Notes under the pieces: model-generated
Told to the model about the DNA's origin: nothing
The model's database searches: none
The model's input: only the letters and a program-made list of their open reading frames with translations
Source: a virus
Taxonomy: Duplodnaviria > Heunggongvirae > Uroviricota > Caudoviricetes
IMG/VR virus record: IMGVR_UViG_3300024273_002067
Length of the DNA: 64,000 bases
Direction: 5' to 3' (one strand)
Shown: piece after piece, positions 1 through 56,178 of the stretch
Layout: each line of letters begins with the position of its first letter
How positions within the stretch are numbered: position 1 is the stretch's first letter
Made by a program: the position numbers and the translations under genes

Positions 1-117
1 TCTTATGGAAGATTTTAATAAAGATAAAAGAATACAACAGTTAGACTTTAGAATATACCCAACTAAGAATGATGTCGAAGAAGTTGAATCAGATAAGAAT
101 TTCATTAAGTGGGTAGA

Positions 118-146
118 TTAAACCAAAACAAAGATGAGTAAAGAAG
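118..146 (+). repeat. Conserved stop/start junction copy 1 (TTAAACCAAAACAAAGATGAGTAAAGAAG)
   Basis: Near-identical ~30-nt motif read directly at six gene boundaries within 1.5 kb; contains ATG of the downstream gene. Confidence 0.8.
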
Positions 147-346
147 AACAATATTGGGAACAAAAAGGATACGATGCTAAGTGTTGGGGGTATGTTATAT
201 TAGATTTTGTATGGGATAAAGATAAGAAAGAACACCCAAAGAAGTATCAGAACTCATATCGTCTTGGACAATGGAGAGCCTATGAAGAAGGAAAGTCATT
301 TAAGAATGAAAAACCATATTTTGATAAACCAAAACAAAGAAAATGA
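134..346 (+). CDS. hypothetical small protein (MSKEE...)
   Basis: ORF with ATGAGTAAAGAAG start motif; stop overlaps next start (AAAATGAGTT). Confidence 0.5.
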   Translation: MSKEEQYWEQKGYDAKCWGYVILDFVWDKDKKEHPKKYQNSYRLGQWRAYEEGKSFKNEKPYFDKPKQRK

Positions 347-663
347 GTTATAAAGAAAAATTTAAAGAGAAAAATGTAGACTCTTATAATGAGTTAGATA
401 AATTCTTAGAAAAAAAAGGTTCAAAAATTAAATACATTGTAACCTCCAACGAGTTAGCAGTGTATCTTACAGATGAAAAAGTTACGACTGGTTCTTGGAT
501 ATGGAACAATAAGATTATGATTCCCAACCCTTATCAAGCAAGTAATAAGTTGGACTTTATATTAAAAAATGACACTGTATATACGATAATATTTTCAATT
601 CCTTGCATATGTGGTATATATGAAGATGAAGAACATGTTACCAAAAACAAAGAAGATGAATAA
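343..663 (+). CDS. hypothetical protein, C-terminus ...KNKEDE
   Basis: ORF; ends in the conserved junction with TAA overlapping the next ATG. Confidence 0.5.
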   Translation: MSYKEKFKEKNVDSYNELDKFLEKKGSKIKYIVTSNELAVYLTDEKVTTGSWIWNNKIMIPNPYQASNKLDFILKNDTVYTIIFSIPCICGIYEDEEHVTKNKEDE

Positions 664-670
664 AGATAAA
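638..670 (+). repeat. Conserved stop/start junction copy 2
   Basis: CCAAAAACAAAGAAGATGAATAAAGA; stop of 343..663 and ATG at 656. Confidence 0.7.
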
Positions 671-910
671 GACTTAAAGACTCAATCAGATGAGATAATA
701 AGATTGAAAGCAGAACTCAAAAGAGTTACCAAAAAAGCATCTATCTTAGAGCAGGATGTTTTTAAACTGATAGCTGCGGAAGAATCCAAAGAGAAGGATG
801 AGATGATAGATGCTTTAATAGATGAGTTAGAAGGCACTACTAAGACAGACCATACCTTTAGACTAATTGAAAAAGCTAGAAAGTTAATCTTTTTAAAACA
901 CAGAAAATGA
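656..910 (+). CDS. hypothetical coiled-coil protein (start re-called to ATG 656; ORF track starts at GTG 611)
   Basis: Internal ATG sits in the conserved junction; the upstream part of the track ORF begins with GTG. Confidence 0.45.
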   Translation: MNKDKDLKTQSDEIIRLKAELKRVTKKASILEQDVFKLIAAEESKEKDEMIDALIDELEGTTKTDHTFRLIEKARKLIFLKHRK

Positions 911-1077
911 TAAAAATAACATTAATTCAAGAAGAGTTAGAGAAAGAAATTAGACAAGCTTTTGTTTATGGTCAAGGGAATAGAGCTTTGATGGAAGTTG
1001 GTTTAGAAAAAGATGAAACAGAGGACTATGTTAATAGTAGAATGAGGAGTTTATTAAATCAAGACAAAGATGAGTAA
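907..1077 (+). CDS. hypothetical 56-aa protein, C-terminus ...NQDKDE (not in ORF track, below 60 aa)
   Basis: ATGA overlap with the upstream stop; ends in junction copy 3. Confidence 0.45.
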   Translation: MIKITLIQEELEKEIRQAFVYGQGNRALMEVGLEKDETEDYVNSRMRSLLNQDKDE

Positions 1078-1083
1078 AGAAGA
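1054..1083 (+). repeat. Conserved stop/start junction copy 3
   Basis: TTAAATCAAGACAAAGATGAGTAAAGAAG. Confidence 0.75.
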
Positions 1084-1324
1084 TAAGATAAAAGAAGCTA
1101 TTACAGATATACTATGGATGGCTATTAGATATGCTGATGGAAGACATACTTATGCACCATCAACAGTTAGAAGAGCTGTTAAAGTTATTAAAGAAGTTTA
1201 TCCAGACTTTAAACTAAAGGAAGATAAAACTCTTATCCAACCAAATGAAAAGGATTTATTTGGTGCCTCTTCTAAGGAGGATTATTTATATGACTTAGTA
1301 AATCAAACCAAAGATTATGAGTAA
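1070..1324 (+). CDS. hypothetical protein (MSKED...)
   Basis: ORF starting in junction 3 and ending in junction 4. Confidence 0.5.
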   Translation: MSKEDKIKEAITDILWMAIRYADGRHTYAPSTVRRAVKVIKEVYPDFKLKEDKTLIQPNEKDLFGASSKEDYLYDLVNQTKDYE

Positions 1325-1326
1325 TT
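1301..1326 (+). repeat. Conserved stop/start junction copy 4 (degenerate)
   Basis: AATCAAACCAAAGATTATGAGTAATTC. Confidence 0.55.
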
Positions 1327-1451
1327 CAGAATTAGCAATAAAGATTGTTGAACTATTTAATCCAAATATGGGAGGAAAATGGGACTCTATAATGTATGAG
1401 CAGAAAAAATTAGTATTAGACATATTAAACCAAAACAAAGAAGATGAGTGA
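1317..1451 (+). CDS. hypothetical 44-aa protein, C-terminus ...NQNKEDE (not in ORF track)
   Basis: ATGAGTAA overlap with the upstream stop; 45 codons counted directly. Confidence 0.45.
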   Translation: MSNSELAIKIVELFNPNMGGKWDSIMYEQKKLVLDILNQNKEDE

Positions 1452-1455
1452 AGAA
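1425..1455 (+). repeat. Conserved stop/start junction copy 5
   Basis: TTAAACCAAAACAAAGAAGATGAGTGAAGAA. Confidence 0.8.
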
Positions 1456-1617
1456 TTAACACTAAAAGAAAGAGAGGTTTTATGTGAGCAAAAAGGAGCT
1501 ACTTGGGATTTACCATTTGAACATAAAGTAGCTGATAAGTGGAGAATACCTAAATTAAGAGATAAATTAACACTAGAGCAAATAGAACACTTAAACCAAA
1601 ACAAAGAAGATGAGTAA
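1444..1617 (+). CDS. hypothetical 57-aa protein, C-terminus ...NQNKEDE (not in ORF track; the antisense track ORF 1425..1766 is probably spurious)
   Basis: 58 codons counted; begins and ends in conserved junctions. Confidence 0.45.
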   Translation: MSEELTLKEREVLCEQKGATWDLPFEHKVADKWRIPKLRDKLTLEQIEHLNQNKEDE

Positions 1618-1622
1618 AGAAA
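1591..1622 (+). repeat. Conserved stop/start junction copy 6
   Basis: TTAAACCAAAACAAAGAAGATGAGTAAAGAAAC. Confidence 0.8.
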
Positions 1623-2344
1623 CAAAATCAAAAGACTTATTGACCTGGGAGGGTTATGAGTGGCAAGTTGGAGAGAGGTGGGGATTAATGCATCCCGAAA
1701 AAACAGAGTGCTGGTATGATGAGTCAGCCGTTGAAATAGTAGGAGATGAATTACACCTTCACACACACCACAACCCAGTTACAATAGATGGTAAAGAATC
1801 TCCTTTTGGTGTAGGGTTAATAAATTGTACAACAAAGTTTGGCTACGGCAGATATGACATAGACATAAAGTTGCCAAAAGGACCTTGCCTTTGGCCAGCT
1901 TTCTGGATGTGGGCTTTTGAATCATGGCCTCCAGAAATAGATGTTTTCGAAGGGTATTCTAACAAAAGAGGTAGCTATACTAACTTTAGTAATTTTCATG
2001 AATTCATAATGGGTAAATTTTGGAAGGTACAAACAAATGTGCACTTAGGCAAGGTGCCTAAAAATTATTCTACTGGTGCTAAAAGTCACTGGCTTAGTTG
2101 GACTTCTCCAGATAAAGTATTCAACAAATATAGCTTAGAATGGTACAAAGATGAAGTAAATATACTTTTCAATGATAAGTTGGTTCGTAAGATAACTGAT
2201 GAAAGTGTATTAGAACAATTACGAGGTAAAGATATGAACGTTATTATAAATAACGGTATACAGAAAGAGCATGTAAATTTAGTTGACAAAAAATTTAAGT
2301 CTACTATGATTTGTAAAAATTTTAGATATTCAAAATATAATTAA
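1610..2344 (+). CDS. Glycoside hydrolase family 16-like (laminarinase / beta-glucanase fold)
   Basis: WPAFWMW and catalytic ExDxxE-type motif PPEIDVFEG. Confidence 0.55.
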   Translation: MSKETKSKDLLTWEGYEWQVGERWGLMHPEKTECWYDESAVEIVGDELHLHTHHNPVTIDGKESPFGVGLINCTTKFGYGRYDIDIKLPKGPCLWPAFWMWAFESWPPEIDVFEGYSNKRGSYTNFSNFHEFIMGKFWKVQTNVHLGKVPKNYSTGAKSHWLSWTSPDKVFNKYSLEWYKDEVNILFNDKLVRKITDESVLEQLRGKDMNVIINNGIQKEHVNLVDKKFKSTMICKNFRYSKYN

Positions 2345-2355
2345 AACAATAGAAG

Positions 2356-2589
2356 ATGAAAAATAACTTATTAAACTTAAGTACAGAGTTAATTAAAAAA
2401 ATAAAATCACTTGAAGGATTTAATTCCCCATTAATTGAAGAAGAAATCATAAGGTCTTTAGCCATAGAGTTAGATGAATTGACTTCACCCAGTCAAGAAG
2501 AGAGGGTAAAGGCGTTACACAACATGTTTGCATTGGGCCAAATATTTAATAAGCACAGAGAAAAAAAAGAAGAAGAAAATGCAGATTGA
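2356..2589 (+). CDS. hypothetical protein
   Basis: ORF in a co-directional array. Confidence 0.4.
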   Translation: MKNNLLNLSTELIKKIKSLEGFNSPLIEEEIIRSLAIELDELTSPSQEERVKALHNMFALGQIFNKHREKKEEENAD

Positions 2590-2814
2590 TTTAAATATAT
2601 ACAGAATTGGAAAATCATATATCAAAATCAGAGCCAGACAAAAAGGGTCTAACCATAATAGGCATATACAACGAAACCTACAGAGATGTTGAGCCAGATT
2701 ATGAAGGGGCTAAAATTATAGTTTGGAATAATAGTTCAACTTCAAAAATAAATTAAAACATTTGTTATTGTAATATTTTTGTTATTAATTCGTTGTTAAT
2801 AAAAAAACATTACA

Positions 2815-3006
2815 ATGACTTGGTTTCAATTAAAAGATAAACAACTTCCCCAAAAAGGTAGCTGGGTTCTGATACGCTCATCACAAAAACATGTTCCAAA
2901 ATATGAAGTTTGCATATATGATGGTCATGGTGAATGGTTTATTCCAGCTTATGACGACTCTTGTGTGGAAAAAGATATTATAGAATGGTGCTATATTGAA
3001 AAGTGA
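2815..3006 (+). CDS. hypothetical protein
   Basis: ORF. Confidence 0.35.
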   Translation: MTWFQLKDKQLPQKGSWVLIRSSQKHVPKYEVCIYDGHGEWFIPAYDDSCVEKDIIEWCYIEK

Positions 3007-3127
3007 GAATACAGCAGTTAAAATATCACATATACATAGTAATGTCATCTGAAGAGGTAGTGCTATATCAAGGTAGTATATTTGGGTGTAAACGATATCT
3101 TGAGATTAATTTAAAAACAAAACACAA

Positions 3128-3421
3128 ATGAAAGACTTAATAGAAATGTCAGAAGGAAATCCTGGTGCATTAACTTGTTTAATGGGTATAATGAAATTTG
3201 AAAATCCAGAAGATTTAGTTAATGGTGTTAAAATAGTTTCAAAACTAAAAACTCTAAACATAAAAGGCACAGACATTTATGTGCTCTGGAGTGATTTAGC
3301 CGAAAGAGACTATTCTAAAATGGCTAATATATGTGAAAAATGTCCAGATGAAATTTTAGTAGATGCATGCTCAAGGCAAGACTACTCAGGTGTTGAATTA
3401 GTTAAAAGTTATATATCATAA
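3128..3421 (+). CDS. hypothetical protein
   Basis: ORF followed by a terminator. Confidence 0.4.
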   Translation: MKDLIEMSEGNPGALTCLMGIMKFENPEDLVNGVKIVSKLKTLNIKGTDIYVLWSDLAERDYSKMANICEKCPDEILVDACSRQDYSGVELVKSYIS

Positions 3422-3476
3422 AAGAGCAAGAGTTATTAAAAAAGTTATTAAAAAAATAATATAAATTAATTTATAG

Positions 3477-3510
3477 CGTTGAATCAAGTGTTTGTTTCAA
3501 CGTTTTTTTT
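3477..3510 (+). terminator. Rho-independent terminator (CGTTGAA-loop-TTCAACG followed by T8)
   Basis: Perfect 7-bp stem and T-run read in the sequence. Confidence 0.7.
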
Positions 3511-3539
3511 GCATTTAAACATAAAAGTTTGTACATTTG
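3508..3539 (+). promoter_or_regulatory. Bacteroidota-type promoter (TTTG -33 box, 20-nt spacer, TACATTTG -7 box)
   Basis: Matches the TTTG / TAnnTTTG sigma-A consensus of Bacteroidetes; sits 21 nt upstream of ATG 3561. Confidence 0.45.
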
Positions 3540-3560
3540 TAATACAAAAACACATGACAT

Positions 3561-3743
3561 ATGAATAAAGATATTTTAAAGAAAATAATAGGATACATTC
3601 TAATTTTGTTAGTAATTCTAATAACAATTAAACTCATTAAGGTTCTTCCTGTCATTATGAAACTTATGGCTTTGGCAGCCAATATATTAACTATATACTT
3701 AGCCTACACTTATTTTATTAATAACAAACAAAACAAAAATTAA
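3561..3743 (+). CDS. small membrane protein
   Basis: Hydrophobic ORF. Confidence 0.4.
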   Translation: MNKDILKKIIGYILILLVILITIKLIKVLPVIMKLMALAANILTIYLAYTYFINNKQNKN

Positions 3744-3747
3744 AATT

Positions 3748-4566
3748 ATGAACATTTTTAAATCAGTTGCAATAGGACTTGTGTCCTTAATTCTCTTAGT
3801 ATCCCTTTTTATGTCCTGGGTAGATGTAGACCCTGGTCAAGAAGGATTTGCATACAGACCTTACGGCGGCGGTGTTGACGTGGAGTCCAGTTATACTGAG
3901 GGTACTTATTTTATAGCACCTTGGAATGATGTTATAACGTACAACATTCTTCAGCAGTCCAAATCCTACAATTCAACCGTAATGGATGTGAACGGTACAG
4001 ACATATCTGTGGAGGTAGCCGTAAACTTCTCAGTAAGAAAAGGAAGCTCATCAAAACTTCACTTAAAACATGGAATTGGATACATTCAATTTATAGATGA
4101 TAAAGTTAAGGGCGCAATTAAAGATGTAGTTGGTCGATATACTTACCAAGAGGTATATTCAACAAAGCGTGAAGCTCTAGAGGGTGAGATAGAAGAAATT
4201 TTACTAGAAGATTTTAAGGGCAATTATATAGTGTTTCATTATGTTGAAATTGCTGATGTAAATCTACCATCAAATATAGCAGCAGAAATTACGAACAAGG
4301 AAACTCAAAAACAGAAAAATCTTACTGCTCAGCAAAAGCAACAAGAACAAATTTATCTTGCTGCTGCAAAAGTGGAAACAGCTAAAGGTGATTCTGCTAA
4401 AGTGGTAATTAATGCTACAGCTGAAGCTGCGTCAATAAACATTAAACAAAAACAACTTAAACAATCTCCTCAATACATTGAGTACCTTAAAGCACAAAAG
4501 TGGAATGGACAAATGCCTCAAGTTGTTGGAAATGGAAGCGGACTAATCATAGACTTGAACAAATAA
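3748..4566 (+). CDS. SPFH/band-7 (prohibitin/HflC-like) membrane protein
   Basis: N-terminal TM segment, SPFH-like core and Q/K-rich coiled-coil tail. Confidence 0.55.
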   Translation: MNIFKSVAIGLVSLILLVSLFMSWVDVDPGQEGFAYRPYGGGVDVESSYTEGTYFIAPWNDVITYNILQQSKSYNSTVMDVNGTDISVEVAVNFSVRKGSSSKLHLKHGIGYIQFIDDKVKGAIKDVVGRYTYQEVYSTKREALEGEIEEILLEDFKGNYIVFHYVEIADVNLPSNIAAEITNKETQKQKNLTAQQKQQEQIYLAAAKVETAKGDSAKVVINATAEAASINIKQKQLKQSPQYIEYLKAQKWNGQMPQVVGNGSGLIIDLNK

Positions 4567-4570
4567 TATC

Positions 4571-5638
4571 ATGAACATAGAACGCGACTACCTAAGATTA
4601 TTAAAAGACATACTCGATAATGGGCGTGAAAAAGAAGACCGTACTGGTACAGGTACAATCTCTCTATTTGGTAGACAAATCAGACACGATATGTCAAAAG
4701 GATTTCCACTAATTACCACCAAAAAAATGTATTGGAAAGGAATTGTAACAGAATTGATATGGTTCTTACGTGGTGATACAAACATCAAATACCTTGTTGA
4801 TAATGATTGTCATATTTGGGATGGTGATTGTTATCAAGCATATTTAAAAAACAGAGACTCACAATACATTGGGCCTTATTATACAAAAGAAGAATTCATT
4901 AACAAAATCAAAACAGATGATGAGTTTGCAAAGAAGTTTGGGTCACTCGGCCCCATCTATGGTAAGCAATGGAGAAATTGGACTAAAGATAAAGATGCTG
5001 GCGCTGTTGAAGGTGGTGTCTTTGTAGAATATGAACAAATAGACCAAATCAAAAATTTAATAGAACAACTTAAAACAAACCCAGATAGTAGACGATTAAT
5101 GGTTAACGCTTGGAATGTTGGGGAAATTTCACAAATGGCACTTCCACCCTGTCATTATGGATTTCAAGTTTATACAAGGGAGTTGAGTTACAACGAGCGT
5201 TATGATATTTGGTTTACGAATAATTACGAAACAGGTATGGAACGTAACTACGACAATAGACCTGACTTTGATGATGAATATTATACACCAACACCTAGCA
5301 GAGCAATCTCCTTAATGTTTAATCAACGTTCAGTAGATACTTTCTTAGGTTTACCATTCAACATAGCATCTTATGGTTTACTATTAAAAATAATAGCCAA
5401 AGAAGTTAATATGGTTCCTGATGAATTGATTGGTAATTTAGGTGATGTTCATTTGTATAAGAACCATATTGAACAAGCAAAAGAACAGTTAACCAGAGAA
5501 CCGATGAATTTGTCTGATGTTAGACTTAGAAATTATGAAAACTTAGAAAGTCTTTTAAATACTAAAAACTCAATGGATAACCTTCAACTATGGCATTATG
5601 ATTCACACCCATCAATTAAAGCGCCCCTCTCCAATTGA
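4571..5638 (+). CDS. thyA: Thymidylate synthase (ThyA) with an ~45-aa insertion
   Basis: dUMP-binding and catalytic-Cys regions (RTGTGT, LPPCH); insert between FQVY and the RAISLMFNQRSVDTFLGLPFNIASY block. Confidence 0.9.
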   Translation: MNIERDYLRLLKDILDNGREKEDRTGTGTISLFGRQIRHDMSKGFPLITTKKMYWKGIVTELIWFLRGDTNIKYLVDNDCHIWDGDCYQAYLKNRDSQYIGPYYTKEEFINKIKTDDEFAKKFGSLGPIYGKQWRNWTKDKDAGAVEGGVFVEYEQIDQIKNLIEQLKTNPDSRRLMVNAWNVGEISQMALPPCHYGFQVYTRELSYNERYDIWFTNNYETGMERNYDNRPDFDDEYYTPTPSRAISLMFNQRSVDTFLGLPFNIASYGLLLKIIAKEVNMVPDELIGNLGDVHLYKNHIEQAKEQLTREPMNLSDVRLRNYENLESLLNTKNSMDNLQLWHYDSHPSIKAPLSN

Positions 5639-18474: not shown

Positions 18475-20091
18475 ATGAAAAAGATTATTATCAACTTATC
18501 ACTATTAGCATTAGGACTAATAATGTCAAACACCTTAACTGCTCAAGCGTCATCTGTATGGGCTACTGTTGAAAGTTTAGAAGCACTAAAACAAGACAAA
18601 AACTTTCAAGACTTACAACAAGAATTAAACTTAAAGTACGAACAAGCTTTATCATCTTCAAAAAAAGAACATTTACAAAAAGTTTATGAATTTAAATGTG
18701 AATGTGATGAAGTAGACCTTTATACATCAATGCACAAAATTAATTCAGTTAACAAAATTGAATATGGACCTAAATACGAAAGCTTATCAGAACCAAATGA
18801 CTATAATTCATTAAGCACAAACTCAAGTTGGCATCTAGATTTAATTAATGCTCAATTAGCTTGGCAATTTACACATGGAAATATTGACATTGCTATATCA
18901 GACCAAAACTACTTTGTAGAACATGAAGAGCTAATTGGTGCAGTATCTTACCATGACACCACCAACACCTCTTCTCAGACTCACGGTACTGCAGTAGCTA
19001 TAACAGCTGCAGGAAACACAAATAATGGCGTAGGTCTTTCTAGCATTGGATACAACTCAACTCTTTCGCTATATAGAATGAACTATGGAGAAGTTTTATC
19101 TGCTTCATATAATGGAGCTAAAGTAATAAACTTAAGCTGGACTAGTGGATGTGCCTATAACCAATATTTACAAGATGCAATAAATGAAGTTTACGAAAAT
19201 GGAACATTTATAGTGGCCGCAGCTGGTAATGGCTCTACATGTGGAGGCTCAGAAGCATTAGTTTATCCCGCTGCTTATGACAACGTATTTGCTGTGTCTA
19301 GCGTTGGAGAAAATGATTCTCACGAAAACCCAAACGGAGCCACTCATCAACACAACAGTTCTGTTGACATAATGGCTCCTGGGTATGATGTTCCGATAAG
19401 TGCCGCTCCAGGATGGTACCTATATGGTAGTGGAACTTCTTATGCGTCTCCAATGGTTGCTGGAACTGTGGGGCTTATGATTTCAGTTAATCCAGACATT
19501 ACAAATGAAGAAATAGAAACAATATTATCTCAAACAGCTTGGAACATTGATGAAGCAAACCCTAGTTACATTGGAAAAATGGGCTCTGGTAGGCTAGATG
19601 CAGGATATGCTGTTGCTCAAGTTCAAAGAAATTTAGATATTGCTGCTGCAAATGATAATAATGATGATGGGAATAATGGTCACGGAAATGATGAAGATGG
19701 TGTAGATGACACCAACCCAGGAAATGGGCACGGAAATTCAAACCCAAGTTATGAACATGCAAAACCATCAAAAGGAGACAATGTACATGTAGGCGATGTC
19801 GTAGATAATCCAAATGGAGGTTCGAACAATGTGCACAAATCATTTTCCGATGCTAGTATCAATAGGATAGTTGTATTTCCAAACCCTTCTCATGGAGACT
19901 TTAGAATAAAGTGGAAAGGAATGGATATGGAGCTTTTATATATTTACAATTCCAACTTTCAGATAGTACAAAGACATAGAGTGGAAATGTATAACCAAAT
20001 TAGCCTAACGCTATTACAGCCTGGTAATTACGTGGCAATGTTAGTGGATAGCAATGGAACTAGATATAGAAAGAGAATAATAATTTTTTAA
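18475..20091 (+). CDS. Secreted subtilisin-like (S8) serine peptidase with a T9SS C-terminal sorting domain
   Basis: Signal peptide; GTSYASPMVAG Ser motif and HGT His motif; C-terminal FPNPS... beta-sandwich tail. Confidence 0.75.
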   Translation: MKKIIINLSLLALGLIMSNTLTAQASSVWATVESLEALKQDKNFQDLQQELNLKYEQALSSSKKEHLQKVYEFKCECDEVDLYTSMHKINSVNKIEYGPKYESLSEPNDYNSLSTNSSWHLDLINAQLAWQFTHGNIDIAISDQNYFVEHEELIGAVSYHDTTNTSSQTHGTAVAITAAGNTNNGVGLSSIGYNSTLSLYRMNYGEVLSASYNGAKVINLSWTSGCAYNQYLQDAINEVYENGTFIVAAAGNGSTCGGSEALVYPAAYDNVFAVSSVGENDSHENPNGATHQHNSSVDIMAPGYDVPISAAPGWYLYGSGTSYASPMVAGTVGLMISVNPDITNEEIETILSQTAWNIDEANPSYIGKMGSGRLDAGYAVAQVQRNLDIAAANDNNDDGNNGHGNDEDGVDDTNPGNGHGNSNPSYEHAKPSKGDNVHVGDVVDNPNGGSNNVHKSFSDASINRIVVFPNPSHGDFRIKWKGMDMELLYIYNSNFQIVQRHRVEMYNQISLTLLQPGNYVAMLVDSNGTRYRKRIIIF

Positions 20092-31576: not shown

Positions 31577-33427
31577 ATGGATTTAAAAAAAATATCAGAC
31601 GAAATAAAAGAAATTGTATCCAATAGGCAAAAGGAACTAAACCTCTCCTTTGTTGAAGACACTCATACTTATTTTATGAAAAACTTACAGGGGGAAATGG
31701 TGAGCAACTACCCTTCTGTGTCTACTGTATTAAAAAGTTTTTATACACCTTTTGACGCAGAGTCAACAAAAAGCTTTAAAAATTGTGGCGGAGACCCAGA
31801 AAAAGAAAAGTCGCTTCTGAAGGAGTGGAGTGATTCTGGAACTTACGCATCTCACATGGGCAGTAGAGTTCACTTTATCTTAGAAGACTATTTGGTTGAA
31901 TTATATGGAGCCTACAAAGAAGTTAGGTTACCAATCTTCGAGTGTGATGATGAACAAACTGAAAACGGAGATTCTATGATTGTTGCTGGCAAGTCTTTTT
32001 TAGACTTAATGCACTCAAGGGGAGCTGTTTTATTAGATACTGAAATGGTTTTAGGTAGTCCCGAATTGGGGTACACTGGTCAACCTGATAAAGTTTGGCT
32101 CATAGTTGGAAAAGATGGTAATCCTGGTATTTTAGTAACAGATTGGAAAGGTTTACCACTAGATACACCAATACTAACAGATAGCGGTTGGAAAAGTATG
32201 GGTACCCTAAATAAATCTGATAAGGTATATGATAAAGATGGTGACTTAGTTAATATCATGAATATATCACAAGTTAAAAATAAGAAGTGTCTTAAGATTA
32301 AATTTGATAATAATGAAGAGGTTGTTTCTGATTTTGAACATAGATGGTTAGTTTATACTGAGAGTAGTGGTGTTAAAAAAGAAAGAGTCATGACAACTCA
32401 AGAGATTAAAGATTATAATGATGGTTTAATTAAAAGAGATTCATATAAAATATTAAAGATTTCAAACCCAAAACCATTAAATAACCCTAAAACTGAATTA
32501 CCAATAGACCCTTATGTCTTAGGTATGTGGTTAGGTGATGGTCATAGTATTGATGCTAAGATAACTCAAGCTAATGAAGTTGTTTGGTCTGAAATTAAGA
32601 AAAGAGGTTATAAGGTTGGAAATGATGTATCACAAGGTGGTGCTGGTAAAGCAACAACTAGAACTATATTTGACTTACAAGGTAGGTTAAGAAAAACATC
32701 TTTATTAAGCAATAAACATATACCAGAAATTTACTTATCCAGTTCATATGAACAAAGGTTAGATTTACTTAGGGGGTTAATGGATAGTGACGGTACATAT
32801 AATAAAACTAGAAATAGTTTTGTAATGGAAACAACTAGAGAAAGTCAAGCTGATTATACTGCTGAAATAATATCTTCTTTAGGCATTAAACCTACTAAGA
32901 GTTCATTTTATAAGAAATTTAACGGTAAAATTATTAAATGCTACAGAACATCGTTCGTAACTAGTGAATTTAACCCATTCTTATCTAGAAATCAAGACCT
33001 AGTGTTAAACCTAAAGAAAGATAGAAGAACTTATAGAACTATAGTATCGGTCAAAGAGGTGGAATCAGTACCAACTAAGTGTATTGAAGTGGATAGTCCG
33101 TCTAGTACATTCTTATGTGGTAAATCGTTATTAGTAACACACAACACAAATAAGCCAAAAAACTTCGTTTCACAATTCTACACCAAACCTATGTTAACTC
33201 CCTTTACAGAGTATGACGACACATCTCTGGGTCACTATTATGTACAACTACCACTTTATGCAAAACTACTCTTAGATATGCTAAAGGGCTCTAAATATGA
33301 AAACATACCACTTCTTGGCGGTATAGTAGTATTGCTAAAAAAAGATGCAACATTTGAAGAGTATAGAATACCTAAGGAAGTTCTAACCATTGTAGACAAA
33401 ATGAATGTTTCACTATACTTAAAGTAA
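31577..33427 (+). CDS. PD-(D/E)XK (YqaJ/RecB/Cas4-like) nuclease interrupted by an intein
   Basis: Exteins carry GQPD, TDWK and QLPLY motifs; the insert 32150..33145 has two LAGLIDADG-like motifs and a terminal HN|T. Confidence 0.6.
   Translation: MDLKKISDEIKEIVSNRQKELNLSFVEDTHTYFMKNLQGEMVSNYPSVSTVLKSFYTPFDAESTKSFKNCGGDPEKEKSLLKEWSDSGTYASHMGSRVHFILEDYLVELYGAYKEVRLPIFECDDEQTENGDSMIVAGKSFLDLMHSRGAVLLDTEMVLGSPELGYTGQPDKVWLIVGKDGNPGILVTDWKGLPLDTPILTDSGWKSMGTLNKSDKVYDKDGDLVNIMNISQVKNKKCLKIKFDNNEEVVSDFEHRWLVYTESSGVKKERVMTTQEIKDYNDGLIKRDSYKILKISNPKPLNNPKTELPIDPYVLGMWLGDGHSIDAKITQANEVVWSEIKKRGYKVGNDVSQGGAGKATTRTIFDLQGRLRKTSLLSNKHIPEIYLSSSYEQRLDLLRGLMDSDGTYNKTRNSFVMETTRESQADYTAEIISSLGIKPTKSSFYKKFNGKIIKCYRTSFVTSEFNPFLSRNQDLVLNLKKDRRTYRTIVSVKEVESVPTKCIEVDSPSSTFLCGKSLLVTHNTNKPKNFVSQFYTKPMLTPFTEYDDTSLGHYYVQLPLYAKLLLDMLKGSKYENIPLLGGIVVLLKKDATFEEYRIPKEVLTIVDKMNVSLYLK
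32150..33145 (+). mobile_element. Intein with LAGLIDADG homing-endonuclease domain (~332 aa)
   Basis: N-terminal block A-like LPLDTPILTDSG, LGMWLGDGHS and LLRGLMDSDGT dodecapeptides, C-terminal LLVTHN followed by Thr. Confidence 0.6.
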
Positions 33428-55203: not shown

Positions 55204-56178
55204 TTATTCTATAATAATTTTTTTACTATAAAGTATATTTTTTGAAGTAGCCACAACCAAGTAGGTGCCTGCAGATAAGTGGTCAGTTTTATCAATGGCA
55301 ATCAAATGCTCTCTACAATCTATAACTTCTATTTTAGAGTAAACTTCATTTCCTCTTACATCTCTAAGAACAACTAAAATTTCTTGTCTACCTATACAAT
55401 TAACATCCTTAAATAGAATATTAATACAATCACCTCTCTTTAATGGAGTTGGGTATATGTCCATTACACCATCTCCATTGGGAGCATGTTCAACAGGAAT
55501 AATATTAAACGTCTCTTGCTCACCATTAAAATCTACCTGCGTAAGCCTATAGTAAGACAATCCTCTTAGTGGGTTACTGTCAATTTCAAAGTAGTTAATT
55601 ATATTGACACTGTTGCCTGCTCCTTTTGTTTCAATTGTAATTTTCCAATCTATTGCATCTTGACTTTTCTCTACAATGAAGTAATCGTTATTAATCTCAG
55701 AAGCAGTTGACCATGATATCTCAACAATGTTTTCATTTACAACAGCATTAAATTCTATTAATTTAATGGGTAAAAATCCGCCATTACTTACAGTGGCTGG
55801 GCCTGTTAGAGGTGGGTCGTTCCCGCTCCACCAAGTATTAGAGCCAATATTTAATCTAGAACCTGAGTTGCCCCCAGTTAGTGTCCCTCCAGCATATACC
55901 TGAACTACACCATCACTATCTAAATTTATTTTTCTTCCATTACTAAATAACATCGTTCCATAAACCTCAATCCTCATGTTAACATAGGTAGGACTATTTA
56001 AATCAATTACAACAGACATTGAAGCGGGTATTCGCATTGTATCTCCTGTATTTGCAGGTACATAACCACAATCCCACGAAGCAGCACTACTCCAGTCACC
56101 ACCATCGTCAATTAAAGTACATATAGCAGAACTAGTAAGTGTAAGTGATAATAAAAATAGTAATAGTAAGTTTTTCAT
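55204..56178 (-). CDS. Secreted protein with a T9SS C-terminal sorting domain (start re-called to MKNLLLL)
   Basis: Signal peptide; C-terminal LSYYRLTQVDFNGEQETF motif. Confidence 0.55.
   Translation of the reverse strand: MKNLLLLFLLSLTLTSSAICTLIDDGGDWSSAASWDCGYVPANTGDTMRIPASMSVVIDLNSPTYVNMRIEVYGTMLFSNGRKINLDSDGVVQVYAGGTLTGGNSGSRLNIGSNTWWSGNDPPLTGPATVSNGGFLPIKLIEFNAVVNENIVEISWSTASEINNDYFIVEKSQDAIDWKITIETKGAGNSVNIINYFEIDSNPLRGLSYYRLTQVDFNGEQETFNIIPVEHAPNGDGVMDIYPTPLKRGDCINILFKDVNCIGRQEILVVLRDVRGNEVYSKIEVIDCREHLIAIDKTDHLSAGTYLVVATSKNILYSKKIIIE

What the first reader, a model, noticed from the sequence alone, without database searches (positions are those of the whole stretch)
118..1622. Six copies of a ~30-nt conserved stop/start junction link a tandem array of unrelated mini-genes
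The consensus TTAAACCAAAACAAAGA(AG)ATGAGTAAAGAAG recurs at six consecutive gene boundaries (118, 638, 1054, 1301, 1425, 1591). In each case the upstream gene ends ...N-Q-N/D-K-(E)-D-E-stop and its TAA/TGA stop is embedded in the ATGAGTAA or ATGAGTGA of the next gene, which starts MSK/MSE/MSN. The protein bodies between junctions are unrelated in sequence and vary in length (44 to 106 aa), so the conserved unit is the nucleic-acid junction, not a paralogous protein family. Three of the mini-genes are below the 60-aa cutoff and are missing from the ORF track. The antisense track ORF 1425..1766 is an artefact of this array. The junction could be a translational-coupling or re-initiation cassette, a repeated early promoter/initiator, or a short homology used to shuffle gene cassettes, analogous to the PeSL elements flanking hyperplastic regions of T4-type phages. 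The shared C-terminal ...NKEDE tail could also be a tag. I know of no described family with this exact architecture.
Basis: seen in the sequence. Interest (0 to 1): 0.85.

Follow-up and report, generated by a model that had tools for sequence, protein, structure and literature searches.

The report
Portable stop-start junction for phage mini-genes
A 25-30 base sequence that stops the previous gene in any reading frame and starts the next one sits between dozens of unrelated small genes in a widespread group of uncultured marine phages, and closely related strains have swapped gene cassettes exactly at this sequence.

Summary
The repeat is real and larger than reported. The window holds 8 co-oriented copies plus one variant between 117 and 2365. 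A near-identical contig (L149) shows that the array runs at least 2.1 kb further upstream, with 18 motif-led genes.

The unit is nucleic acid, not protein. The consensus is TTAAACCAAAACAAAG(AAG)ATGAGTAA. It carries a stop codon in each of the three frames around one ATG, and upstream genes use the three frames about equally. It has no Shine-Dalgarno sequence, no stem-loop and no recognisable promoter. It has A at the positions that favour initiation in Bacteroidia.

Exact 22-23-mers occur in more than 150 IMG/VR stretches and in at least 120 metagenome contigs. In 596 Gb of prokaryote genomes they occur only in five low-GC MAG contigs that look mis-binned. No cultured phage carries it.

Contigs more than 98.8% identical to the window have different cassettes, and the breakpoints fall inside junction copies 118, 638 and 1425. 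Across relatives, 62 of 63 homology breakpoints lie in a junction.

Best reading: a promoter-less, structure-less analogue of the T4 PeSL cassettes. It acts as a translation re-start site and as the short homology for cassette exchange. The expression role is inferred. The C-terminal tag idea is rejected.

The parts
117..143 (+). Junction copy 1, short form ATTAAACCAAAACAAAG-ATG-AGTAAAG. The upstream gene stops at TAA 119-121. The next gene starts at 134.
   Evidence: It is the left recombination breakpoint of the block shared with L156.
134..346 (+). Cassette gene, 70 aa, ORFan. It stops at the TGA of ATGA in junction 2.
   Evidence: No Pfam or PHROG family. An identical protein is encoded in L149, L150, L155, L156 and L157.
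323..352 (+). Junction copy 2, long form with AAA in place of AAG. The upstream gene reads it as DKPKQRK*.
343..663 (+). Cassette gene, 106 aa, ORFan.
   Evidence: The exact protein is found in 29 blocks of the public collection, with different downstream neighbours in L155, L156 and L157.
636..665 (+). Junction copy 3, long form, with ACC in place of AAACC.
   Evidence: It is a breakpoint in L155, L156 and L157 at window position 666.
656..910 (+). Cassette gene, 84 aa. The true start is ATG 656, not GTG 611.
   Evidence: L149 gene call 3428-3682.
887..916 (+). Junction copy 4, degenerate (TTAAAACACAGAAAATGA).
   Evidence: (family D5).
907..1077 (+). Cassette gene, 56 aa.
   Evidence: A 63% identical homologue lies in L053.
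1053..1079 (+). Junction copy 5, short form with 2 mismatches.
1070..1324 (+). Cassette gene, 84 aa.
1297..1326 (+). Junction copy 6, diverged (AAATCAAACCAAAGATTATGAGTAA).
1317..1451 (+). Cassette gene, 44 aa.
   Evidence: A 57% identical homologue lies in L042.
1424..1453 (+). Junction copy 7, long form, perfect core.
   Evidence: It is the right breakpoint in L155 and L146: identity of 99.6% begins at window position 1426.
1444..1617 (+). Cassette gene, 57 aa.
   Evidence: Conserved in L146, L148 and L155.
1590..1619 (+). Junction copy 8, long form, perfect core.
1610..2344 (+). Junction-led gene, 244 aa, glycoside hydrolase family 16. It is the last gene of the array.
   Evidence: Pfam PF00722, E = 2.7e-15.
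2336..2365 (+). Variant junction TTAAAACAATAGAAG-ATG in front of gene 2356-2589. The same type recurs in L003.
1..121 (+). 3' end of the preceding 105-aa cassette gene, which begins upstream of the window (L149 2576-2893).
   Evidence: It is 89% identical in protein to a gene in L002, L004 and L065 that is followed there by different cassettes.

Best explanation
The element is a portable gene junction of about 25-30 nt. The consensus is TTAAACCAAAACAAAG(AAG)ATGAGTAA.

It carries a stop codon in each of the three frames: TAA 15 or 18 nt before the ATG, TGA within ATGA, and TAA/TGA within ATGAGTAA. These surround one ATG. Any upstream ORF therefore ends in the junction, and the next ORF starts there.

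In a group of uncultured large marine phages, probably infecting Bacteroidota, the junction links long co-oriented arrays of unrelated ORFan mini-genes (median 64 aa).

Two roles are proposed.

(1) Evolutionary role, shown by comparison. The identical junctions are the places where cassettes are gained, lost, replaced and reordered between related phages. The most likely mechanism is homologous recombination or annealing across the roughly 25-bp identity. Every product again has a working junction. That makes the array a hyperplastic, plug-and-play region.

(2) Expression role, inferred. The array is transcribed as a polycistronic RNA. The junction acts as an unstructured, Shine-Dalgarno-free, A-rich initiation region. 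Ribosomes that terminate within 18 nt or less of the ATG would re-initiate there, or new ribosomes would load.

The strict sequence conservation, including the C residues, goes beyond what initiation alone requires. It may reflect homogenisation by recombination or an unknown sequence-specific factor.
For: Junction anatomy:
- The ATG lies at a fixed offset of 14 or 17 nt from the motif start in about 90% of copies.
- Of 441 non-redundant copies, 83%, 97% and 69% carry the frame-0, frame-1 and frame-2 stops. 57% carry all three, against 1.8% of ordinary gene starts.
- Upstream ORFs end in frames 0, 1 and 2 in 99, 112 and 123 cases. The stops a given upstream ORF does not use are still present in 66-99% of copies.
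- The only common length variant is a 3-nt insertion, which keeps the three-frame arrangement.

Coupling and orientation:
- 585 of 778 non-redundant copies have an upstream ORF of at least 25 codons ending inside the junction.
- Copies are co-oriented in all loci but one.

Expression signals:
- Junction RNAs do not fold. Minimum free energy is -0.1 to -3.9 kcal/mol, with z-scores between -0.4 and +1.0.
- No inverted repeats, no sigma-70-like site and no TTTG...TAnnTTTG promoter in the array.
- Other genes of the window do carry TATATTTG boxes upstream.
- The short form has A at -3, -6, -12 and -13, the positive determinants measured in Flavobacterium johnsoniae (PMC6847099).

Distribution:
- 35 plus 117 IMG/VR stretches and at least 120 metagenome contigs including TARA.
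- 0 and 5 hits in 596 Gb of prokaryote genomes. The 5 are multi-copy, low-GC contigs in MAGs of unrelated taxa.

Shuffling among relatives:
- 618 junction-led genes fall into 369 families. 110 families occur in at least 2 loci, and 57 of those have different neighbours.
- Cassettes that are 95-100% identical sit between unrelated flanks, and identity ends inside the junction on both sides.
- 34 of 35 5' breakpoints lie 25 nt or less upstream of the ATG. All 28 3' breakpoints lie within -19 to +27 nt of the stop.

Shuffling in the window's own locus:
- L155 replaces window 667-1425 (four cassettes) with three unrelated cassettes.
- L156 shares only window 119-666.
- L146 and L157 share the same breakpoints.
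- The shared parts are 98.8-99.6% identical, and each arrangement is seen in at least 2 independent assemblies.

Crossover position:
- The short or long state follows the downstream cassette in 40 of 50 comparisons, against 62.5% expected by chance. It does not follow the upstream cassette (62 of 93). This places most crossovers in the AAACCAAAACAAAG core.
Against: No transcript or ribosome data exist, so the polycistronic and re-initiation parts are inference.

The conservation of about 1.3-2 bits at some 20 positions, including C at -5, -10 and -11, is far stronger than in other start regions of the same window. A-rich initiation alone does not explain it.

About 25% of copies are not directly coupled to an upstream ORF. 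A few follow terminator-like hairpins with no visible promoter. That would fit a promoter role.

Breakpoints at gene boundaries could partly reflect selection for viable recombinants rather than targeting by homology.

All comparison data come from short-read metagenome assemblies, although the key junctions are replicated in independent samples.

No recombinase was identified in the 64-kb window.
Confidence: 0.68

Rival explanations
1. The junction is a phage-specific promoter, read by a phage-encoded RNA polymerase or sigma-like factor. Transcription would start at or just before the ATG, giving each mini-gene its own leaderless or near-leaderless mRNA. Cassette exchange would then be a by-product, as with T4 PeSL promoters.
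For: The conserved block spans about -16 to +8 around the A of ATG. That resembles the extent of single-subunit RNA polymerase promoters (own knowledge). Conservation is much stricter than initiation regions usually need. Some copies are the first gene after a gap or hairpin, with no host-type promoter nearby: only 12 of 193 uncoupled copies have a TAnnTTTG box within 110 nt. In T4-type phages the analogous shuffling element is a promoter (PMC2839356).
Against: The motif is tied to the ATG at 0 or 3 nt and to stops in three frames. A promoter does not need either feature. 75% of copies overlap the end of an upstream ORF with no terminator between genes. No RNA polymerase gene was seen in the window, though only 64 kb were available. 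F. johnsoniae transcripts are mostly leadered (PMC6847099, section list).
Confidence: 0.17
2. The junction is an operator in the mRNA for a phage-encoded sequence-specific regulator. This could be a translational repressor like T4 RegA, an endoribonuclease like RegB, or an antisense small RNA. The regulator would switch the whole set of mini-genes on or off together. This can coexist with the best explanation.
For: The same about 25-nt sequence covers the start codon of every gene in the array. It is conserved far beyond general initiation needs. The closest positional analogue, the start-associated sequences of Cluster K mycobacteriophages, was interpreted the same way (PMC3203893).
Against: No candidate regulator was identified. 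No reverse-complement copy of the motif that could encode an antisense RNA lies in the window; the only minus-strand hit has 2 mismatches and sits at a gene start. Not testable with sequence alone.
Confidence: 0.1
3. The junction is a site for a dedicated site-specific recombinase, making the arrays an integron-like system in a phage.
For: Co-oriented arrays of promoter-less single-gene cassettes, with breakpoints confined to one short conserved site.
Against: The site is asymmetric, with no inverted repeat or hairpin, unlike attC. No integrase was found in the window. The site always includes a start codon and three stops, features that serve expression rather than recombinase binding.
Confidence: 0.04
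4. The repeat reflects a conserved C-terminal peptide (..LNQNKEDE) or N-terminal MSK tag, or it is chance low-complexity sequence in an AT-rich genome, or the shuffling is an assembly artefact.
For: Five of the window's junctions do encode ..NQ/K-N/D/T-K-(E)-D-E. The sequence is A-rich.
Against: Upstream ORFs read the junction in all three frames about equally. Exact 22-mers are absent from 596 Gb of genomes apart from apparently mis-binned phage contigs, and shuffled controls give 0 matches. Both alternative cassette orders recur in independent assemblies from different studies.
Confidence: 0.01

Closest known systems
PeSL (promoter-early stem-loop) mobile regulatory cassettes of T4-type phages (Arbiol et al. 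2010, PMC2839356; Comeau et al. 2014, PMC4122927)
   Same: Both are short conserved repeats placed before ORFan genes in hyperplastic regions. Insertions, deletions and replacements between close relatives have their breakpoints in the repeat. In both, the repeat is part of the downstream gene's expression signals.
   Different: A PeSL is an intergenic composite of a sigma-70-type promoter, an AT-rich upstream region, a G/C-rich stem-loop terminator and a Shine-Dalgarno sequence. The junction here has none of these. It is about 25-30 nt, overlaps the end of the upstream ORF, has stops in all three frames, and abuts the ATG.
Start-associated sequences (SAS) of Cluster K mycobacteriophages (Pope et al. 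2011, PMC3203893)
   Same: Both are asymmetric repeats in one orientation, sitting immediately upstream of ATG starts of non-structural genes from different families. Both are absent from host genomes, and the stop of the upstream gene often lies inside the repeat. The function of SAS is unknown, and a role in translation initiation was suspected.
   Different: SAS is a 13-bp GGGATAGGAGCCC containing a Shine-Dalgarno core, lying 3-7 bp from the start, with 11-19 dispersed copies per genome. Many copies have an upstream inverted-repeat extension. No role in cassette exchange was reported. Here the sequence differs, it touches the ATG, it forms dense tandem arrays and it marks recombination breakpoints.
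Integron gene-cassette arrays (attC sites)
   Same: Both are co-oriented arrays of promoter-less single-gene cassettes of unrelated function, exchanged at a conserved boundary site.
   Different: attC sites are 57-141-bp imperfect palindromes that fold as hairpins and are cut by an IntI integrase. The junction here is unstructured and asymmetric, no integrase is seen, and it doubles as stop and start signal.
Shine-Dalgarno-free, A-rich initiation regions of Bacteroidia (Baez et al. 2019, PMC6847099)
   Same: No Shine-Dalgarno sequence, low structure, A at -3, -6, -12 and -13, and no extra AUG near the start.
   Different: Ordinary Bacteroidia start regions are only loosely similar to one another. 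This one is a near-invariant 25-mer.

Membership tests
PeSL cassettes (T4-type phages) | Sigma-70-type -35/-10 early promoter inside the repeat | tested here: not met
   No sigma-70-like site coincides with any junction. 21 sites were found in 4 kb against 19.9 +/- 4.4 in shuffles.
PeSL cassettes (T4-type phages) | Stable stem-loop acting as terminator or attenuator | tested here: not met
   Junction RNAs fold at -0.1 to -3.9 kcal/mol with z-scores between -0.4 and +1.0. No inverted repeats at the junctions.
PeSL cassettes (T4-type phages) | Located before ORFan genes in hyperplastic regions | tested here: met
   369 families among 618 junction-led genes, 256 of them singletons. No Pfam or PHROG hits for the window's mini-genes. 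Different cassettes lie between conserved anchor genes in the window and in L004.
PeSL cassettes (T4-type phages) | Indels and replacements between close relatives have their breakpoints in the repeat | tested here: met
   Window/L149 compared with L155, L156, L146 and L157. 62 of 63 breakpoints lie in junctions.
Start-associated sequences (Cluster K mycobacteriophages) | 13-bp consensus GGGATAGGAGCCC with a Shine-Dalgarno core | tested here: not met
   The junction consensus is TTAAACCAAAACAAAG and has no GGAG.
Start-associated sequences (Cluster K mycobacteriophages) | Asymmetric, one orientation, a few nt upstream of ATG starts, absent from host genomes | tested here: met
   ATG at 0 or 3 nt in about 90% of copies. 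Co-oriented in all loci but one. 0 and 5 hits in GTDB genomes.
Integron attC cassette arrays | Imperfect palindromic attC that folds as a hairpin | tested here: not met
Integron attC cassette arrays | Adjacent tyrosine-recombinase integrase with attI and the Pc promoter | tested here: inconclusive
   No integrase among the window proteins scanned. Only 64 kb of a probably much larger genome was available.
Bacteroidia Shine-Dalgarno-free initiation region | A at -3, -6, -12 and -13, low secondary structure, no Shine-Dalgarno sequence | tested here: met
   Logo: the short form has all four A residues, the long form three. Folding. Criteria from PMC6847099.
Bacteroidota sigma-A promoter | TTTG (-33) and TAnnTTTG (-7) | tested here: not met
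   None in 1-2400. TATATTTG boxes occur upstream of eight other window genes.
Known RNA families (Rfam 15) | Match to any covariance model | tested here: not met
   No match at E <= 1 in window 1-4000.

The most novel reading that the evidence does not exclude
The junction is the recognition site of a dedicated phage-encoded factor, either a polymerase or initiator, or a recombination or annealing protein. On this reading the arrays are a true cassette-capture platform: a phage counterpart of the integron. One 25-nt universal adaptor would supply termination, initiation and mobility to any small gene, letting marine Bacteroidota phages trade host-takeover or anti-defence genes across distant lineages.
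Probability: 0.2. Interest if true: 0.9.

Novelty: new variant of a known kind. Interest (0 to 1): 0.72.

Why it matters
Whether phage mosaicism arises at conserved linker sequences or by random illegitimate joining followed by selection is an old question. This element is an unusually clean, abundant natural case of the linker route.

Hundreds of contigs carry one invariant 25-30-nt junction. Single-gene cassettes that are 95-100% identical appear in different orders and different phages, and the breakpoints are confined to the junction.

The junction also shows a minimal design for joining genes. Three stops and one start in 25 nt, with no Shine-Dalgarno sequence, work regardless of the frame of the preceding gene. 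That is useful for thinking about translation re-initiation in Bacteroidota and as a synthetic-biology part.

The arrays mark a large, fast-turning pool of at least 369 ORFan families. They are obvious candidates for host-takeover or anti-defence functions.

The motif is a simple sequence tag. It finds this uncultured phage group in metagenomes and flags mis-binned contigs in MAGs.

Tried and rejected
- C-terminal tag: rejected, because upstream ORFs use all three frames.
- Chance or low complexity: rejected.
- Known RNA family: none.
- Host-type promoters and terminator-like hairpins at the junctions: none.
- Cultured relatives: blastn of a 25-copy array (L008) and of the consensus against 50,697 phage records gave nothing, or only single chance-level hits. 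tblastn of a large window protein found only distant matches.
- Literature: no paper in the library prints the 14-mer. The crAss-like phage phi14:2 paper reports no common motif for early transcripts.
- Function of the mini-proteins: no Pfam or PHROG family. I did not run structure prediction or the large protein searches, because cassette function does not decide what the junction is.
- Junction conservation against gene-body conservation among diverged homologues: 83.5% against 67.7%. I do not rely on this, because junctions were selected by motif match.
- Recombinase or RNA polymerase gene in the window: none recognised.
- A second start-associated motif (TTAACCCTTTAAA, seen in L003) is not start-associated in the window.
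Full report
**1. The observation**

The + strand of window 1-2600 is a run of short, tightly packed genes. Nearly all of them start inside the same sequence. Aligned on the ATG, the starts at 134, 343, 656, 1070, 1317, 1444 and 1610 share (A/T)TTAAACCAAAACAAAG, an optional AAG/AAA/ATT, then ATGAGTAAAG. The start at 907 has a decayed copy. The start at 2356 has a related variant, TTAAAACAATAGAAGATG.

Chance does not explain the repeat. The 29-mer with up to 3 mismatches has 2 matches against 0 in 100 shuffles. The 11-mer core with up to 1 mismatch has 18 matches against 5.8 +/- 2.6 expected, and seven of those lie in a row on the + strand within 124-1607. Outside the first 2.4 kb, the 64-kb window has no convincing copy.

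**2. The unit is DNA/RNA, not protein**

At 118 the upstream gene stops at the TAA inside TTAAAC. At 326 the junction is read as DKPKQRK and the gene stops at the TGA of ATGA.

Relative to the ATG, the consensus holds three stops:
- TAA in frame 0, at 15 nt (short form) or 18 nt (long form) upstream;
- TGA in frame 1 (ATGA);
- TAA or TGA in frame 2 (ATGAGTAA).

Among 441 non-redundant copies from the window and related contigs:
- 83%, 97% and 69% carry these three stops, and 57% carry all three. Only 1.8% of ordinary gene starts in the same DNA do.
- Upstream ORFs end in frames 0, 1 and 2 in 99, 112 and 123 cases.
- The stops a given upstream ORF does not use are still present in 66-99% of copies.

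The only frequent length variant is a 3-nt insertion, which preserves this arrangement. The C-terminal tail is therefore a by-product of one of three readings, not a tag.

The mini-ORFs themselves are real genes. In 36 diverged homologous pairs from 26 families, mismatches fall 185/127/402 on codon positions 1/2/3, and 303 of 579 codon differences are synonymous. They match no Pfam or PHROG family.

**3. What the junction lacks and what it has**

It lacks:
- RNA structure. Minimum free energy is -0.1 to -3.9 kcal/mol, with z-scores between -0.4 and +1.0.
- Inverted repeats.
- A sigma-70-like promoter.
- A Bacteroidota-type TTTG...TAnnTTTG promoter.
- Any Rfam match.

Other genes of the window do carry TATATTTG boxes 12-55 nt upstream, and none carries a Shine-Dalgarno sequence. 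Two proteins have weak type-9-secretion sorting domains. The thymidylate synthase gene is closest to that of a Flavobacterium phage. The host is therefore probably a member of the Bacteroidota.

In Flavobacterium johnsoniae, initiation is favoured by low structure and by A at -3, -6, -12 and -13 (PMC6847099). The short form of the junction has A at all four positions and the long form at three.

**4. Distribution**

- The exact long-form 22-mer occurs in 35 IMG/VR stretches and in none of 596 Gb of GTDB genomes.
- The short-form 23-mer occurs in 117 IMG/VR stretches.
Many are from TARA Oceans.
- The short-form 22-mer also occurs in five MAG contigs assigned to unrelated taxa. These contigs are 25-34% GC and four of the five carry several copies, so they are probably mis-binned phage DNA.
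- Source contigs reach 380 kb.
- One 6.5-kb stretch (L008) has 25 copies.
- Copies are co-oriented in every locus but one.
- No cultured phage in a 50,697-record collection carries the motif beyond single chance-level hits, and no paper in the library prints it.

**5. Cassette exchange among relatives**

618 junction-led genes (median about 64 aa) fall into 369 families, of which 256 are singletons. 110 families occur in at least two loci, and 57 of these have different neighbours on at least one side.

Cassettes that are 95-100% identical at the nucleotide level sit between unrelated flanks. For example, L049 and L073 share four cassettes at 97-99% identity in a different order. Printed alignments show identity ending inside the junction on both sides.

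Among 129 unique pairs of at least 90% identity:
- 34 of 35 5' breakpoints lie 25 nt or less upstream of the ATG;
- all 28 3' breakpoints lie within -19 to +27 nt of the stop.

The short or long state of a junction follows the downstream cassette in 40 of 50 comparisons, against 62.5% expected. It does not follow the upstream cassette (62 of 93). This places most crossovers in the AAACCAAAACAAAG core. These pairs are not independent, so the result is only suggestive.

**6. Cassette exchange in the window's own locus**

Exact-protein look-ups found contigs from independent studies.

- L149 is 99.8% identical to window 1-2601. It extends the array upstream, giving 18 motif-led genes over 4.5 kb, and the array is still not complete.
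- L155 matches window -211..666 at 98.9% and window 1426..2475 at 99.6%. It replaces window 667-1425 (four cassettes) with 518 nt holding three unrelated cassettes.
- L146 has the same right breakpoint.
- L156 shares only window 119-666, with unrelated cassettes on both sides.
- L157 breaks at 666.

Junction copies 118, 638 and 1425 are therefore recent recombination breakpoints. Both the window-type and the alternative joints recur in two to four independent assemblies, which argues against chimeras.

Compared with the more distant L004, two anchor genes are conserved (89% and 70% protein identity). Everything between them differs: eight cassettes in 2.2 kb in the window against about four in 0.56 kb in L004.

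**7. Mechanism**

Shown:
- the junction is a frame-independent stop-start adaptor;
- it is where cassettes are exchanged.

Inferred:
- Exchange is by homologous recombination or strand annealing across about 25-30 bp of identity. That length is near the minimum used by bacterial and phage recombination systems (own knowledge).
- Exchange between direct repeats would also give deletions, duplications and possibly one-cassette circles, as shown for PeSLs (PMC2839356). Paralogous cassettes within arrays are consistent with this.
- The array is polycistronic, and the junction serves as a Shine-Dalgarno-free start region. Ribosomes that terminate within 18 nt or less would re-initiate there. 585 of 778 non-redundant copies have an upstream ORF of at least 25 codons ending inside the junction.

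Not explained:
- Why the sequence is nearly invariant, including the C residues, when other starts in the window are only loosely A-rich.

Possible explanations for that invariance are homogenisation by the recombination itself, spread of cassettes together with their junctions, or a sequence-specific factor. The main rival is a phage-specific promoter that gives near-leaderless mRNAs. It fits the extent of conservation and some uncoupled copies, but it does not explain the three-frame stops or the fixed link to the ATG.

**8. Comparison with known systems**

- T4-type PeSLs: the junction works like them. Both are repeats in front of ORFans in hyperplastic regions, with indel breakpoints in the repeat. 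It fails two defining PeSL features, the sigma-70 promoter and the stem-loop.
- Start-associated sequences of Cluster K mycobacteriophages: it resembles them in position, asymmetry and absence from host genomes. It differs in sequence, in lacking a Shine-Dalgarno core, in forming dense arrays and in the evidence for exchange.
- Integron arrays: it resembles them in layout but lacks a hairpin site and an integrase.

I file it as a new variant of the known kind "conserved boundary repeats that mediate modular shuffling".

**9. Verdict**

The cassette-shuffling interpretation is supported, the tag idea is rejected, and the expression role is plausible but untested.

Interest is high for phage evolution and for translation in Bacteroidota. 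It is tempered because the concept has a precedent in PeSLs and because all evidence is computational.

Noticed in passing
window 2336-2365; L003 11400-12600 and 8040: A second junction type, TTAAA(A)CAATAGA(G/A)ATATG, precedes gene 2356-2589 in the window and five or six consecutive small genes in L003. It suggests that lineages or sub-arrays carry alternative junction sequences.
   Followed up: partly
window 4571-5638; L149 7220-9591 (also L150, L151): The thymidylate synthase gene is intact in the window. In near-identical relatives its first ~143 nt are followed by a 340-aa DUF7487 ORF and then a complete, more divergent thyA copy (76-84% nt). This looks like a homing-endonuclease-type replacement.
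   Followed up: partly
window 2602-2735: This 134-nt segment holds most of a 49-aa TTG-start ORF (2607-2756). It is absent from L149 and L146, which are otherwise 97-99.8% identical. The indel is not bounded by the junction motif.
   Followed up: partly
window 3077, 23667(-), 24734, 25050, 38039, 45476(-), 57775(-), 62760(-): TATATTTG, the TAnnTTTG -7 box of Bacteroidota promoters, lies 12-55 nt upstream of eight genes in the correct orientation. Together with the absence of Shine-Dalgarno sequences and two weak type-9-secretion sorting domains (18475-20091 and 55204-56178), it points to a Bacteroidota host.
   Followed up: partly
window 31577-33427: A 616-aa ATPase (terminase-large-subunit-like or helicase-like) carries a LAGLIDADG/Hom_end homing-endonuclease segment at residues ~382-455. 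This is probably an intein.
   Followed up: no
window 8406-62293: The window holds an unusually cell-like gene set for a phage: thymidine kinase, acyl-CoA dehydrogenase, NADAR, dTDP-sugar epimerase, DOT1-like methyltransferase, GMP-reductase-like enzyme, rhomboid protease, two ClpP, peptide deformylase, topoisomerase IA, PcfJ-like protein, DnaJ and a Lon-like AAA protease. This suggests a very large phage genome.
   Followed up: no
L158-L162 (GTDB MAG contigs): Junction arrays occur in 25-34% GC contigs of MAGs labelled Microbacteriaceae, Promethearchaeia, Campylobacteraceae and Aenigmatarchaeota. These are most likely phage contigs mis-binned into those MAGs.
   Followed up: partly
L003 7400-7700 and 5560-6520: Another short repeat, TTAACCCTTTAAA, lies 10-20 nt upstream of several gene starts in L003. 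It could be a phage promoter. It is not start-associated in the window.
   Followed up: partly
window 1266-1290: A small hairpin followed by a T-rich run (CCTCTTCTAAGGAGG ATTATTTATA) lies inside gene 1070-1324, just upstream of the diverged junction at 1297. It could be a weak attenuator or chance.
   Followed up: no
L149 1537-1552 (window coordinate about -1235): A TAGCTATATTTGTAAC box, a host-type -7 element, lies inside a 29-aa cassette about 30 nt upstream of a junction. The same cassette and box occur in L008. It may be an internal promoter of the array.
   Followed up: no
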